Of a DNA stretch of 48,241 nucleotides, positions 7,996-19,577 are shown piece by piece. A program made the translations under genes and the position numbers. How positions within the stretch are numbered: the stretch's first letter is position 1; the number at the start of each line of letters is the position of its first letter. The notes under the pieces are model-generated. The model made no database searches. It was not told the origin of the DNA and was given only the letters and a program-made list of their open reading frames with translations. Location of the stretch: assembly GCA_947565505.1 (NCBI GenBank), contig CANOGH010000001.1, positions 1 through 48,241 on the forward strand. The letters are read 5' to 3'. Origin of the DNA: an uncultured Candidatus Saccharibacteria bacterium. GTDB taxonomy: Bacteria; Patescibacteriota; Saccharimonadia; Saccharimonadales; Saccharimonadaceae.

Positions 7996-10797
7996 CTATT
8001 TTTTAGGCCTATTTTTGTTGAAATGACGGTTTGGTTTGAAACTTCTTTTGTTCTGGTTCCCTGGGGTGGTTTTGGGATTAGGCGCAGGCTTGTCTTCTGC
8101 TGATGTACCGGTTTTTATGGGAGTATTGTCCGATGTCTGGCTCTGTTTGGCGATGAGTTCGCTAAGGTTAGCCAAGGTGGCGCGATCATCTTTGCCCTCA
8201 GCGGAATTGGGCGACAGTTTAAGCTTTTTAAAATCAGCTTGCGGAGTGGGGTCTGGACGATACTGAAAATTGCTATTAACTGGTGGTAAATTGGGAATAA
8301 ACGGCCTTTCAGCGCCGCTAGTTCCCTGCCCGGCTTGACGACCAGAATCAGAAAGTTCTTGTTTATACTTGTTGGCACCTTCGATAGTTTCACGAATCTC
8401 TGCTTCAATTTCGGCTTTAGGACGAGCATTGACGCGGCGGGAATACTCCACAATTTCGTCAAAATTGTCTTCTGGAGTTTTTGGTAGAGCTAAGGTAGTA
8501 GCAGAAAAGGCGGGGGCTTTTTCGCCGGCAATGATCATGGAAATGACGAAGTGGCGGTTATTCATTTGGATGAGGTCGGACTGGTCGAAGATAGGTTCAA
8601 ATTGTTTAGAGAGGATCGGCGCATCGTCAGCAGAAACGCGGAAAGAAATGGTGGTACCAACGTTACCGAAAACAGCATCTCTGACTGATTCTGTCATTTG
8701 AGAAATGTACTGGTTGGCTACAGTGAGATTTAAGCCATATTTTCTGGCTTCAGACAAGATTACGGCGAAGGAGTCAGTCGCGAAGTTCTGGAACTCGTCC
8801 ACGTAGAGATAAAACGGACGACGATCAGCGACATCGGGGATATCACTGCGGCTCATGGCGGCTAGCTGCACTTTGGTAACAATGAAGGCGCCGAGAATTG
8901 CGGCATTATCTTCGCCGATTAGCCCTTTAGAGAGGTTAACTGCTAGAATTTTACCTTCGTCCATAATCTTGCGAATATCAAAGCTAGATTTTGGCTGTCC
9001 GATGATATTTCGAATAATAGGGTTGGCGGTAAAGGCACCGACCTTATTGAGCACTGGTGCAATACTTTCATTGATCTGCTTTTCATTCCATTGACCAAAC
9101 TCGTGTTTCCAGAATTGTAACACGGTTACATCTTGGCAGTAATCGAGAGTTTCTTTGCGGAAGTCTTTATCAGTAAGCAGTCTGGAAATATCAAGTAAAG
9201 TGGTTTCGGGCCGATCTAGCAGGGCGAGTAGAGTATATCTTAAGATGTGTTCAAGTCGTGGGCCCCAAGAGTCGCCAAACATGCGTTTTAGCACGCCAAT
9301 AACTTCCGAACAGACGTTGGGCTTACGGGAAGGGTCACTAAGTTCAAGGGGATTAAAGGCTACCGGATAATCAATATCGGAAGGGTTGAAATAAATGACA
9401 TCCTGAATGCGGCTTTTGGGCACGAAGCGGAGATTATTGGTGGCGAAGTCACCGTGAGGGTCGACAATACAATATCCTTGATTATAAAAAACGTCAGATA
9501 GGGCAAATAACTCGAGCATACCACTTTTACCAGCACCAGTTTGTCCGATGATATAGACGTGACGAGAACGATCACGACGCAGTAGCCCAAATTGGTGATT
9601 AATTCCACGAAAATTGGTTAGACCGAAGGCGGAAATGTTTTCATCGTGTTGCGGGTCGCCAATAATTAATGGTAATTTTGCGGGAGGCTCGGCGGTTTTA
9701 GACGTAGCCCAGACGATGTTAGGAGTTTCTACACTGGTATGCGGGAGGTGATAAACGCTGGCGAGCTCAGAGATATTAAGGATGAAGCCATTATCTGCAA
9801 ATTTACGAAGTTTGAAGTCATCAAGGTCTTCCATTTTAAAACTACCACCTGTAAGCTTGAAACCGTTCAGGTTAGTGGAATTGTATTGTTTAAACGTGCC
9901 GACTAGGGCTTGCATGTTGAGCTTGGCGTTGATCTGGTCCTTACCAAGATAGGCAAGCCGAATTTTAACCTCGTAGCCTAATTTGGTGGCTTTTTCTTCA
10001 GCTTTAGCAATACGGGTTTTGTCGCGTTCGGAAAGTTCAACTTTCTTAGCGTTTTCGCCGCTGCCGCCAGTAGGAGGGGTAAAGAGCGCGCCAAGAGCTT
10101 CTATGATCCAAGTCCAGTCGATGCCTAGTCCACCAATATTAATGAGTTTCTTGCCACTTTTAACTCGTTTCACCCACTTGTCCGTAGTGTTTTTGTGCCA
10201 ATCATCCGGTATCGGCCGGGTAAGAATTTGGATCCATAGTTCTTCAGAGTTGTCTGCGTCTAGTTTTGCTAGAGTTCCGGTGATACCGGCCAATGGGTCA
10301 ACCTCAAAAGTGTCAAAGGTTTTAATTGGCAAGGCTTCATTTTCGGTTAGGCTAAGTTCGGCTGAATAAACTGTGGGATACTTTTCGCGATCATCAATGT
10401 AGTCATCTTGTATTTTGTAGATTTGAACAGTAGGGTATTGGGCATAGATTTGCCCTTCTACGAAGCTTTGGAGGATTTTGGGCACCCAGACGTAGAAGCG
10501 AATTTGTCCAGCAGTAGAGACAATTTCAAAACTGAGATGTTCCTGTACGCCGTTAGAATTTTTGAGCTCTGCTTTATCGCGTAGAATACCGTGGAGGCTG
10601 GCAAAGAGTTGCTCGGCGGCTAGTTCCTTTTTGTCGTTGGCGCGCGGAATTTCCAACATCAAAAGTACTGAATCCACATTCAGTACTTTGAGACGGTTTA
10701 ATTTTTTGTAATTACGATAACTGAGGAATGCAAAAAGCAGGACAATTGGAATCCAGACGACAGGCATTAAGAGAAAATTGATAATTTGTGTAAACAT
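7996..10797 (-). CDS. VirB4/TraG/HerA-like P-loop ATPase of the CPR type
   Basis: N-terminal TM; Walker A GQTGAGKS, DPHGD, WGPRLE, Walker B LYVDEFQ, LSEARKY; low-complexity C-terminal tail. Confidence 0.85.
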   Translation of the reverse strand: MFTQIINFLLMPVVWIPIVLLFAFLSYRNYKKLNRLKVLNVDSVLLMLEIPRANDKKELAAEQLFASLHGILRDKAELKNSNGVQEHLSFEIVSTAGQIRFYVWVPKILQSFVEGQIYAQYPTVQIYKIQDDYIDDREKYPTVYSAELSLTENEALPIKTFDTFEVDPLAGITGTLAKLDADNSEELWIQILTRPIPDDWHKNTTDKWVKRVKSGKKLINIGGLGIDWTWIIEALGALFTPPTGGSGENAKKVELSERDKTRIAKAEEKATKLGYEVKIRLAYLGKDQINAKLNMQALVGTFKQYNSTNLNGFKLTGGSFKMEDLDDFKLRKFADNGFILNISELASVYHLPHTSVETPNIVWATSKTAEPPAKLPLIIGDPQHDENISAFGLTNFRGINHQFGLLRRDRSRHVYIIGQTGAGKSGMLELFALSDVFYNQGYCIVDPHGDFATNNLRFVPKSRIQDVIYFNPSDIDYPVAFNPLELSDPSRKPNVCSEVIGVLKRMFGDSWGPRLEHILRYTLLALLDRPETTLLDISRLLTDKDFRKETLDYCQDVTVLQFWKHEFGQWNEKQINESIAPVLNKVGAFTANPIIRNIIGQPKSSFDIRKIMDEGKILAVNLSKGLIGEDNAAILGAFIVTKVQLAAMSRSDIPDVADRRPFYLYVDEFQNFATDSFAVILSEARKYGLNLTVANQYISQMTESVRDAVFGNVGTTISFRVSADDAPILSKQFEPIFDQSDLIQMNNRHFVISMIIAGEKAPAFSATTLALPKTPEDNFDEIVEYSRRVNARPKAEIEAEIRETIEGANKYKQELSDSGRQAGQGTSGAERPFIPNLPPVNSNFQYRPDPTPQADFKKLKLSPNSAEGKDDRATLANLSELIAKQSQTSDNTPIKTGTSAEDKPAPNPKTTPGNQNKRSFKPNRHFNKNRPKK

Positions 10798-17289: not shown

Positions 17290-17381
17290 GTTGTTCGATA
17301 AAAGGCGATGTGCTGGGTATTTTTAATAGTTTATCGAGCTTATAGTTGTATTTTGAGAAGATTTTGCTATATACTAGTCGG

Positions 17382-17914
17382 TAGAGTGTAAGTTTGAGAG
17401 ACTTCGCAGTCTAAAATTAGCGGATTTTAGTGGTGATAACGGAAGAATTAGACAGGAGGAGAAGGATTGTGGGGTCACTTGAGTGAAGGATCTTAGCGAA
17501 AGTAATGAGGTCCGGAATGGGTTCGCTCAATTAGCTTGAAAGACGGCATCTATGAGCACTGAGGATGAAGGTTCTTTAAGAATATCGAGGCTTCAGTGGC
17601 GAAAATAGTACGCTGGTGGAGCGTGGATTGAATGTAAAATGTGGAGAACTAGCGTGTTTTCATGAGAAGCCGCAAGCGCTTGGCGGCGCATAGATCTCGT
17701 GCGCAAGATTAAGGGTGGCGTGGAGCAGCTATGGTCGGACATGTGTATTGGTGATATTAGAGGAGGATACATGTCTGAATAAATGACGAGGACGAAAGAT
17801 GACTTGAGGTTTTCCTATGAGGCGGAGGATTAGCACTTGTCATGCTGGGTGAGTGAAAATAGCTGCAAGGTGGAAAATAGCCTTAAAACATAGTAAGGGT
17901 CATAAAGCCACAAA
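17382..17914 (+). ncRNA. ROOL-like large ornate ncRNA
   Basis: ORF-free and follows a TATACT -10 (17370-17375). Many helices: CACTGAGG/CTTCAGTG, GCTCA/TGAGC, ACGCT/AGCGT, GCCGC/GCGGC, GCGCA/TGCGC, GACATGT/ACATGTC, long-range GCAGCTAT/ATAGCTGC. Ordered motifs CTTGAGTGAAG, CACTGAGGAT, GAGAAC, GTCGGACATG, TCTGAAT and GGTGAGTGAAAATAGCTGCAAGGTGGAAAATAGCCTTAAAAC resemble ROOL RNA as recalled from memory. Ends approximate. Confidence 0.75.
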
Positions 17915-18241
17915 GCCCCAGAGGGAGTGCAGGTAAGGGTGGGCATCACCTGACTATGGTCCTCTGGGGCTATGTAGCCCTACAACACATCGTCGTTCGA
18001 CTCCGGATAGCTCCGGAAGCGCGACCCACCTCACACAAACACGGGGCCCGCCGGTTATAGGGATTGTAATGCTTTTGAAAGATTCCCTAAAAGTGGAGGT
18101 AGTACTTACAGTTTGCGACATTAAGAAGAAATCGCAAACCCTAGGGGTTTCAAAAGCACACAATTATCTATTGCCTAATCGAGACTAGACAATAGCAATT
18201 TGTTTTTTTAGGTACAGTTGGAGTCTGTTTAACTCTAACTA
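17914..18241 (-). ncRNA. Unassigned structured RNA convergent on the ROOL-like RNA
   Basis: Perfect promoter upstream; a series of hairpins, several with G-U pairs that form only on the minus strand; possible GGTGGG/CCCACC pseudoknot; ends in the 11-bp stem AGCCCCAGAGG/CCTCTGGGGCT. Confidence 0.55.
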
Positions 18242-18247
18242 ATAAGC

Positions 18248-18276
18248 ATTATAGCACACGGAGGATTAAATGTCAA
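18248..18276 (-). promoter_or_regulatory. Perfect sigma70 promoter overlapping the dprA RBS and start
   Basis: Minus strand TTGACA (18276-18271)-17 bp-TATAAT (18253-18248) with extended TG. Confidence 0.7.
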
Positions 18277-19577
18277 TACTTTTTTCAGACTTTTTTGCAA
18301 AAAACAATGAAATTCGACCCCAAGAAGCGGAATTTACAGAGGTGTTAGAGTCCATTGCGCTAACGCCTAAAACATTATATTTTTATGGAAAAATTCCCCA
18401 AAAGAGGGTTAAAACGGTAGCAATTGTGGGTACACGAAAGTTTACTAAATATGGCGAAAATGTGGCTTACCAGTTGGCTTATACATTAGCGAAATGTGGG
18501 GTGGTGGTGATTTCGGGATTGGCTTACGGGATTGATTCAATTGGCCACCGTGGGGCTCTGGATGCGGGCGGAGTGACTTTGGCGGTTTTAGGAACGCCGA
18601 TTAACGAGATTTATCCGCGAGAGCATCGAGGTTTGGCGGCAGAGATTGTTGAGAAGGACGGAGCGGTTATTAGCGAATTGGCTCCAGGAGAAAGTTATTA
18701 TGCTAAGACCTGCTTCTTGCGGCGAAATCGTATCATTGCTGGATTAGCGGATGCAGTGATCGTGGTGGAGGCGGCGGAGAGGAGTGGATCTTTAAATACT
18801 GCTGCGCACGCCGTGGAGCAGGGTAAGGAGGTGTTTGCGGTGCCAGGAGATGTGACTAGGCCGATGTCACGGGGTTGTAATCGCCTGATTGCGGCTGGGG
18901 CTTATGTTTGTTCTGGGGCGGAAGATGTTTTGGCGGTATTATTTCCAGAAAGGGTAAGCTTGGGTCGAGAGAAGGATGAGCGTAAGTTTAGGCGAGCTAG
19001 TTCCTCTAAGAGGCGGATTATTCAGGATAAAACTTGTCATGATGGTAATGAGTTTAAGGGCAGGGTATCGGATACGAAAACTGAAGCTAGCACAATATCA
19101 TGTTCTACTGCAAAATCAGTTAGTTATGAGTGCGATGCTAGTGAGGCTGACCAAATTAGGCCTGAGAGCCACGAAAATGCCCTTTTGGGGCATACTGTTA
19201 CAAAAGCTGGGCATAATCAATGTCGGAGTAAACAGGCCTTGCAGGATAAGCAAAAGGTGGCAAAAACGGCGATTTCGCATCGATCTGGGCGGGATATTGG
19301 AGCCTTAGCTATGGCGTCGCAACAACAAAAACCTCAATTATCTCAGCTACTTACTGAATCTGGATCTGATAAGAATCTAGAAGCTGAGAATTTTCAGGAT
19401 AATTTGGATCCGGAAAAGCTGATTTTGAAGGAAATACGCAGCGGCAAGCGTGGTAGTGAAGAGCTGTTTCAGGGTAGTGGGTTGGAGATTGCTGATTTTA
19501 ACCGTTTGTTGATGACCTTGGAGTTAAATGGCCAAATCAGGACGACGGATGGGTTGAACTGGTATTTGGCGCAATGA
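18270..19577 (+). CDS. dprA: DNA-processing protein DprA with a long linker insertion
   Basis: VAIVGTRK, ISGLAYGID, RRNRIIAGL, SGSLNTA and FAVPG motifs; C-terminal LMTLELNG winged helix; GGAGG RBS. Confidence 0.93.
   Translation: MSILFSDFFAKNNEIRPQEAEFTEVLESIALTPKTLYFYGKIPQKRVKTVAIVGTRKFTKYGENVAYQLAYTLAKCGVVVISGLAYGIDSIGHRGALDAGGVTLAVLGTPINEIYPREHRGLAAEIVEKDGAVISELAPGESYYAKTCFLRRNRIIAGLADAVIVVEAAERSGSLNTAAHAVEQGKEVFAVPGDVTRPMSRGCNRLIAAGAYVCSGAEDVLAVLFPERVSLGREKDERKFRRASSSKRRIIQDKTCHDGNEFKGRVSDTKTEASTISCSTAKSVSYECDASEADQIRPESHENALLGHTVTKAGHNQCRSKQALQDKQKVAKTAISHRSGRDIGALAMASQQQKPQLSQLLTESGSDKNLEAENFQDNLDPEKLILKEIRSGKRGSEELFQGSGLEIADFNRLLMTLELNGQIRTTDGLNWYLAQ

What the first reader, a model, noticed from the sequence alone, without database searches (positions are those of the whole stretch)
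17914..18276. Second ~330-nt structured RNA transcribed head-on into the ROOL-like RNA
Seen: a perfect TTGACA-17-TATAAT on the minus strand, then hairpins AGTTAGAGT/ACTCCAACT, CTATTGTCTAGTC/GATTAGGCAATAG (2 G-U), a multibranch domain closed by TGCTTTTGAAA/TTTCAAAAGCA with CCCTA/TAGGG and TTTGCGA/TCGCAAA inside, and TCCGGA/TCCGGA. The final domain AGCCCCAGAGG/CCTCTGGGGCT has an inner loop CCCACC that can pair with GGTGGG ~85 nt upstream (pseudoknot). Its end abuts the ROOL-like 3' end. I recognise no family. Inference: a novel ncRNA, possibly a partner, cargo or antisense regulator, forming a two-RNA system. Its promoter overlaps the dprA translation start.
Basis: partly seen in the sequence, partly recalled or inferred. 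Interest (0 to 1): 0.8.

Follow-up and report, generated by a model that had tools for sequence, protein, structure and literature searches.

The report
Ribosome-tail-mimicking RNA gene of Patescibacteria
The folded element beside dprA is a predicted stand-alone RNA gene, matching no catalogued RNA family, that is kept across many ultra-small Patescibacteria and nearly always displays a loop copying the ribosome's message-docking tail, with which it likely binds and dampens messenger RNAs; the neighbouring 'ROOL-like' stretch was not found in related genomes and is unlikely to be its partner.

Summary
The promoter and helices are real. The element is a predicted ~330-nt stand-alone RNA gene (18241-17911, minus strand) in a Saccharimonadia genome, with no Rfam match. 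Homologues occur in 31 of 36 genus genomes, at dprA loci across the order and class, and in 13 families of other Patescibacteria classes, mostly convergent with pth. Core helices covary (18 of 27 pairs change on both sides). The proposed pseudoknot is plausible but confined to one order and has no covariation. The two-RNA idea fails: the 'ROOL-like' stretch has no ROOL match and was found in 0 of 300 genus genomes. Most likely the RNA pairs in trans with Shine-Dalgarno sites of many mRNAs (0.45); a decoy for a ribosomal protein is the main rival (0.3). No conserved target was found and transcription is not shown. This scan noted the same family before on other genomes.

The parts
18248..18276 (-). 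sigma-70 promoter, TTGACA-17-TATAAT with extended -10
   Evidence: same layout in 27 of 27 untruncated genus loci
17911..18241 (-). predicted ncRNA gene, about 330 nt (ends inferred from promoter and terminator)
18216..18240 (-). P1, 5' hairpin; sequence variable, helix kept
   Evidence: at least 5 bp in 27 of 27 genus copies
18207..18215 (-). single-stranded C-rich motif A (GUACCU/GCACCU), conserved in the order
18168..18195 (-). P2 hairpin, variable, optional
   Evidence: at least 5 bp in 26 of 27 genus copies
18064..18163 (-). P3, long covarying helix carrying the aSD hairpin (branched in this genus)
18091..18107 (-). aSD hairpin: AAGU/ACUU stem with loop ACUACCUCC (AUUACCUCC in 26 of 27 genus copies)
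17978..18062 (-). P4 multibranch domain with P5 (loop holds GUGAGGU, stem GGG), P6 and P7
17911..17971 (-). terminator-type hairpin with conserved loop GCCCACCC; possible pseudoknot with GGUGGG at 18030-18025
18270..19577 (+). dprA, divergent; ATG inside the -35 box, GGAGG at 18260-18264 in the spacer
17370..17910 (+). the 'ROOL-like' neighbour: weakly folded, found only in this genome, not part of the system

Best explanation
This is a predicted stand-alone, single-copy RNA gene of Patescibacteria whose long helix holds out a loop copying the anti-Shine-Dalgarno (aSD) tail of 16S rRNA, and which likely pairs in trans with the Shine-Dalgarno sites of many mRNAs to dampen their translation. Shown by sequence comparison: a conserved strong promoter, a terminator-type hairpin, covarying P3 and P4 helices, an almost invariant unpaired CCUCC loop, no conserved reading frame, and Shine-Dalgarno use by a minority of host genes. 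Inferred: that it is transcribed and stable; that the loop nucleates on GGAGG and extends by opening the weak A-U stem beneath it; that the result is broad repression of SD-led mRNAs while leaderless mRNAs escape; and that in Saccharimonadales the extra C-rich elements and the G-rich GGUGGG segment fold back as a pseudoknot that tunes or protects the RNA.
For: CCUCC is kept in 75 of 76 homologues found by blastn or dprA synteny without using the loop, and in 120 of 122 overall; it is predicted unpaired (p >= 0.8) in 108 of 122. Bases 5' of it vary (UUA, UAC, CAC, AAU, AGC), as expected if only the GGAGG complement matters. The 16S tail in the two order relatives with an assembled 16S reads GGAUUACCUCCUUUCU; the genus loop AUUACCUCC is identical to nine bases of it. 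Scaffold covariation: 91.9% of cells paired and 18 of 27 pairs with two-sided change, 0 of 500 shuffles as high; 14 of 14 pairs of outer P3 across classes. GGAG/GAGG precedes 21-43% of unambiguous starts in five genomes, GGAGG 4-14%, against 1.7% GGAG background in G000. Precedent: NfeR1 and RsaE/RoxS use exposed aSD or C-rich motifs on many targets without Hfq (passages read in 10.1101/2025.11.14.688489, and PMC6158497).
Against: No conserved target: none of 256 orthologue sets ranked high in all genomes, and the ssb lead held in only 1 of 30 genomes. Most lineages carry ACCCUCC, one C more than the 16S tail, yet GGAGGG is not a favoured SD variant. Retention across several classes of minimal genomes, with a large covarying scaffold, is unusual for base-pairing sRNAs (own knowledge) and fits a protein- or ribosome-binding RNA as well. 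Transcription is not shown. Shuffle controls ignore relatedness, and alignment A4 includes members found with a model of the same structure.
Confidence: 0.45

Rival explanations
1. The RNA is a structural mimic of the 16S 3' tail that binds a protein or the 30S subunit (bS21, bS1 or a KH-domain protein) as a decoy, store or assembly aid, rather than pairing with mRNAs.
For: Single copy, deep conservation and a covarying long helix with a fixed adjoining domain. Ancestral neighbours are pth and der, both translation genes. OLE RNA binds bS21 through an SD/aSD mimic (PMC12054373, passages). bS21 is present in 29 of 29 RNA-bearing genomes tested. In this genus the loop could pair with the internal GUGAGGU to form an SD/aSD-like duplex (-11 to -13 kcal/mol). 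Saccharimonadia mostly lack era and rbfA (PMC12641178, passages).
Against: bS21 is also in 19 of 21 genomes where the RNA was not found, so co-occurrence does not discriminate. Era, the classic binder of the 16S tail (own knowledge), gave only G-domain matches in other GTPases in 5 of 5 genomes. The internal SD-like partner exists only in part of one family. No binding was tested.
Confidence: 0.3
2. The element acts in cis on dprA: its strong divergent promoter covers the dprA start and ribosome-binding site, so its transcription throttles dprA and natural transformation.
For: The promoter overlaps or abuts the dprA start in 27 of 27 untruncated genus loci and at most class loci. Where the dprA ATG sits in the -35 box (20 of 27), 18 carry an SD in the spacer; 0 of 7 others do.
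Against: Does not explain the invariant loop or the covarying scaffold. Linkage is not obligatory: one order member lies downstream of dprA and in other classes it is usually beside pth, often without dprA nearby. Interference may be a side effect.
Confidence: 0.1
3. It is a heavily diverged housekeeping RNA (6S or SRP RNA), both of which were not found in this genome.
For: No 6S match and no SRP RNA match over the cut-off in G000; single copy; strong promoter.
Against: No Rfam hit at E <= 10 for the window copy or E <= 1 for seven other copies, short ones included. The 5' and 3' ends do not close a rod with a central bubble. No SRP-type GNRA domain is seen and the Ffh RNA-binding domain was not found.
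Confidence: 0.07
4. It is the partner, cargo or antisense regulator of the adjacent ROOL-like RNA.
For: The two abut head-on in this genome; the neighbour folds weakly (z = -2.4) and has several GAAA-type loops.
Against: Neighbour found in 0 of 300 genus genomes, 0 phage and 0 plasmid records; no ROOL model hit. One metagenome pattern hit shared only 34 nt. The two do not overlap.
Confidence: 0.02

Closest known systems
NfeR1 / alpha-r14 'cuckoo' sRNAs of Alphaproteobacteria (10.1101/2025.11.14.688489, passages read)
   Same: Hairpin loops display an aSD motif; Hfq-independent; many mRNA targets.
   Different: Three short redundant hairpins with CCUCCUCCC, versus one CCUCC loop on a 25-35-bp irregular helix plus a multibranch domain here; no Rfam match; different phylum.
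RsaE / RoxS of Firmicutes (PMC6158497, passages read)
   Same: Stand-alone RNA with C-rich motifs, one in a loop, that pair with SD regions. In Saccharimonadales this RNA also has three C-rich elements.
   Different: Much shorter and simpler; duplicated identical motifs; no sequence or Rfam match.
OLE RNA P6 region bound by bS21 (PMC12054373, passages read)
   Same: A large bacterial ncRNA that carries a copy of the 16S aSD.
   Different: In OLE the aSD is paired in a stem with an SD-like strand; here it is an open loop in most lineages. No OLE match in Rfam scans; Oap partners not looked for.
ROOL RNA (Rfam RF03087)
   Different: Neither this RNA nor the neighbour matches the model.

Membership tests
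aSD-loop trans-acting sRNAs (works-like class: NfeR1/cuckoo, RsaE/RoxS) | Independent gene with own promoter and terminator | tested here: met
   Conserved promoter in 27 of 27 and terminator-type hairpin of at least 8 bp in 27 of 27 genus copies; by sequence only
aSD-loop trans-acting sRNAs (works-like class: NfeR1/cuckoo, RsaE/RoxS) | Unpaired, conserved aSD/C-rich seed | tested here: met
   CCUCC in 120 of 122, predicted unpaired in 108 of 122
aSD-loop trans-acting sRNAs (works-like class: NfeR1/cuckoo, RsaE/RoxS) | Pairs with and regulates target mRNAs | tested here: inconclusive
   No conserved single target in a five-genome scan; a broad target set cannot be tested by sequence
alpha-r14 / cuckoo family | Several adjacent short hairpins each with CCUCCUCCC; match to the family model | tested here: not met
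   One CCUCC loop; no Rfam hit
RsaE/RoxS | Match to the family model, duplicated identical C-rich motifs | tested here: not met
   No Rfam hit
OLE RNA | Match to the OLE model; aSD paired in a stem | tested here: not met
   No Rfam hit; loop predicted open
OLE RNA | Binds bS21 | not testable with these tools
   bS21 present in 29 of 29 RNA-bearing genomes; binding untested
6S RNA (RF00013) | Rod with central bubble, ends paired; model match | tested here: not met
SRP RNA (RF00169) | Domain IV with GNRA loop; Ffh partner encoded | tested here: not met
   (genome 96% complete)
tmRNA / RNase P RNA | Model match; would be the genome's copy | tested here: not met
   Both lie elsewhere, on contig C16
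ROOL (RF03087), for the neighbouring stretch | Model match and homologues elsewhere | tested here: not met
   (control rang in no genome, so sensitivity unproven)
cis leader (riboswitch/attenuator) of topA | Fixed position directly 5' of the same gene, no separate promoter | tested here: not met
   Downstream genes vary, unrelated ORFs often intervene, and in other orders and classes pth faces it head-on

The most novel reading that the evidence does not exclude
An ancient housekeeping RNA peculiar to Patescibacteria: a free-standing copy of the 16S 3' tail on a rigid scaffold that works on the translation machinery itself. It would either park all Shine-Dalgarno-led messages, or store a 30S-platform protein, when these epibionts are off their host, or stand in for the Era/RbfA step that Saccharimonadia have lost.
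Probability: 0.25. Interest if true: 0.9.

Novelty: new variant of a known kind. Interest (0 to 1): 0.72.

Why it matters
Patescibacteria have shed most regulators and about half of the ribosome biogenesis factors (PMC12641178), and a 2022 TM7x transcriptome preprint states that no small RNA had been validated there (10.1101/2022.03.25.485537, passage). A single-copy structured RNA kept across several classes of such genomes is probably under strong selection. Its one fixed feature points at translation initiation. It gives a concrete, mutable target for asking how these epibionts control translation with so few proteins, and culturable Saccharibacteria exist in which to test it (own knowledge).

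Tried and rejected
Rfam: no family at gathering or E-value thresholds. tmRNA, RNase P, 6S and SRP identities rejected. Small protein: longest ORFs 20-69 aa, frame not kept (11/8/8 of 27 across the three frames). topA leader rejected. Mobile element: 0 hits for two patterns in viral contigs; one 22-nt chance match in phages. Expression: three mouse-gut metatranscriptome runs, held as contigs, gave flat 2-5x patches over the locus and equally over tmRNA and RNase P, so they say nothing either way. Specific targets: ssb lead failed (1 of 30); no long complement of the three motifs recurred in G148, G462 or the first 400 kb of G116; none in 16S, tmRNA or RNase P RNA beyond short matches. Era as partner rejected; bS21 co-occurrence uninformative. 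My first regex scan of 30 phylum dprA loci missed copies later found by the models (against 68, 72), so absences are not shown. Models R1 and R2 missed all 8 Saccharimonadia genomes in the phylum draw, which include known carriers. An RNAalifold long-range pair between motif A and the terminator stem was set aside: one copy breaks it and it competes with the terminator. G116 was examined for 400 of 764 kb and G092 for 180 kb only. Print: searches found no description. Two 2026 language-model ncRNA preprints do not mention Patescibacteria or dprA in the main text (term search only); their supplements are closed and could hold this RNA. In PMC8040213, none of 12 dprA rows is from Saccharibacteria; I saw 14 of 25 TM7x rows, three short ones without listed neighbours could be fragments, and the alignment files could not be read.

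Full report
Setting. The window is contig C1 of G000, a 1.11-Mb, 96% complete genome. It belongs to class Saccharimonadia of Patescibacteria: records named Saccharibacteria in a GTDB-wide pattern scan coincide with a genome that the tool labels 'same class'. The finding lies between a CDF transporter and dprA, with topA further on.

Observation. All helices and the promoter are as described. The minus strand folds far better than shuffles (z = -6.2, 0 of 100). Rfam gives nothing at gathering level or at E <= 10, nor for seven homologues at E <= 1. RNase P RNA and tmRNA lie elsewhere. 6S, SRP RNA and the Ffh RNA-binding domain were not found.

Conservation in the genus. blastn finds the element in 31 of 36 genus genomes and 0 of 24 genomes of other families. 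Of 30 loci fetched, 27 are untruncated; all 27 have dprA divergent and the same promoter. P1, P2 and the terminator hairpin vary in sequence and length but keep a helix in 27, 26 and 27 of 27. P3 and P4 show two-sided changes, with 9 of 45 consensus pairs covarying. No reading frame is kept. The dprA ATG sits in the -35 box in 20 of 27 loci; 18 of these have an SD in the spacer and 0 of the other 7 do.

Wider distribution. At dprA loci of other families the same architecture is visible in 20 of 22 (19 divergent, 1 downstream); the two misses are near contig ends. A two-motif pattern hits 108 of 173 order genomes and 1 of 127 genomes of other orders, never twice in a genome, with 1 control hit in 301. 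By synteny, read by eye and regex, it is present in 8 of 8 pattern-negative order genomes and 19 of 19 genomes of other orders that had a dprA locus; 3 of the 30 asked had no dprA hit. The shortest copies are about 185 nt: P1, P3 with its loop, P4 and terminator. On 17 such copies the named structure gives 91.9% paired cells and 18 of 27 pairs with two-sided change; 0 of 500 shuffles reach this and slid controls reach at most 51%. A model from them finds 8 of 151 phylum genomes. A second model finds 15 of 151, of which 9 were in its training set and 6 were new. Thirteen of the 15 face pth head-on (7 by pth model or tblastn, 6 by ORF resemblance). Looking downstream of pth gave the element in 8 of 27 genomes outside Saccharimonadia. 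In all, 13 families outside the class carry it. Both models missed all 8 Saccharimonadia genomes in the same draw, so lineages without a hit are not shown to lack it. The GTDB-wide pattern gave 20 hits, none named outside Patescibacteria (2 unnamed bacteria). Viral contigs gave none.

The constant feature. Across 122 genomes the loop on top of P3 holds CCUCC in 120 and is predicted unpaired in 108. Part of that set was found through the loop; among the 76 found by blastn or dprA synteny, 75 have it. The bases 5' of the core vary between lineages. CCUCC is the aSD core. The 16S tail of two order relatives reads GGAUUACCUCCUUUCU, and 26 of 27 aligned genus copies show AUUACCUCC (G000 has ACUACCUCC).

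The pseudoknot. A terminator loop with CCACC and a GGUGG upstream occur together in 69 of 69 parsed order copies that have the loop. Two more were parsed to a later hairpin, and 16 order rows, G000 among them, were not parsed or lacked the motif stretch. In genus g1 GGUGGG sits about 60 nt before the terminator, against about 21 nt in most other families, which suggests that it is kept for a reason. But both strands are invariant, so there is no covariation. G116 has GGGAUGGG with an unchanged loop. In other orders 6 of 11 parsed copies have CCACC without GGUGG, and 11 of 11 parsed copies in other classes have neither. In this genus the same G-rich segment could pair with the terminator loop (-13.6 kcal/mol) or the aSD loop (-11 to -13), and its GGG also belongs to P5. 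I rate the pseudoknot as a plausible later addition, about even odds.

The neighbour. The plus-strand stretch folds weakly (z = -2.4, 2 of 100). It has no ROOL hit (the control rang nowhere) and was found in 0 of 300 genus genomes, 0 phages and 0 plasmids. Whatever it is, the RNA studied here exists without it.

Mechanism. Best reading (0.45): a trans-acting RNA whose exposed aSD loop pairs with SD sites of many mRNAs. Hosts use SD at 21-43% of unambiguous starts and also have many leaderless-looking genes, so such an RNA would be selective for one class of message. NfeR1 and RsaE/RoxS are the precedents (passages read). Against it, no conserved target emerged from 256 orthologue sets in five genomes, two of them partial, the ssb lead failed, and the scaffold is larger and older than such sRNAs usually are (own knowledge). 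Main rival (0.3): a 16S-tail mimic that binds a protein or the 30S subunit, as OLE binds bS21 (passages read). bS21 is in 29 of 29 carriers but also 19 of 21 genomes without a hit; Era was not found in 5 of 5, in line with PMC12641178 (passages). Cis control of dprA (0.1), a diverged 6S or SRP RNA (0.07) and a ROOL partner (0.02) follow. Public RNA runs were uninformative, so transcription is inferred from sequence only.

Novelty. Not in Rfam 15 and not found in the paper searches listed under Tried and rejected; closed or unreadable supplements could hold fragments. PMC9297842 and PMC7160235 were checked by term search only. This scan has noted the same family on at least seven other genomes; those notes agree with what I tested here and are not counted as evidence. 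It is a new family with a distinct architecture inside a known kind, the aSD-displaying RNAs, with a one-in-four chance of being a new housekeeping RNA of the translation machinery.

Noticed in passing
window 18270-19577: DprA is 435 aa against about 285-310 aa in most Saccharimonadia relatives, owing to a long low-complexity stretch between the Rossmann domain and the C-terminal winged helix (domain names from own knowledge).
   Followed up: no
window 17370-17910 (+): Purine-rich stretch with several GAAA-type loops and a thrice-repeated GAAAATAG; local fold z down to about -3; no homologue found. A 26-nt promoter-like piece at its start recurs in G036 at the same relative place.
   Followed up: partly
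G035 (C28, C16) and G150 (C1, C13): Two copies of the RNA; in G150 each lies beside a dprA copy. Could be duplication or strain mixture.
   Followed up: no
L008, L023, L024, 3' of the RNA: The terminator hairpin with its C-rich loop is tandemly duplicated.
   Followed up: no
L129 (G139), L221 (G394), L122 and L125 (genus g70): Natural loop variants (CCUUCC, CCCCCC, longer C runs) that would be useful for finding a co-varying target.
   Followed up: no
G000 genome-wide: Many intergenic sites carry a near-identical promoter-like block, CTATTGAC-N-TGTGCTA(T/C)AAT-GGAAG, often with no gene start behind it; possibly a dispersed repeat.
   Followed up: no
G000 C5:22217, C68, C52: Three promoters are followed by the same short palindrome-bearing leader (CTGCCATGATTGGCAG type), possibly an operator or a repeated cis element.
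   Followed up: no
G000 C16:9833-10190 (L003): The tmRNA scores 72 bits with Rfam but ARAGORN listed no tmRNA in the contigs shown; its T-loop looks non-canonical.
   Followed up: no
G148, ORF G148_361 in my script's numbering: A small protein that looks like the KH-domain chaperone KhpA (label recalled, not tested) ranked third in the target scan; candidate partner or target.
   Followed up: no
window 7996-10797 (-): A 933-aa protein with weak VirD4/TraD-like ATPase matches, next to a Fic-like gene.
   Followed up: no
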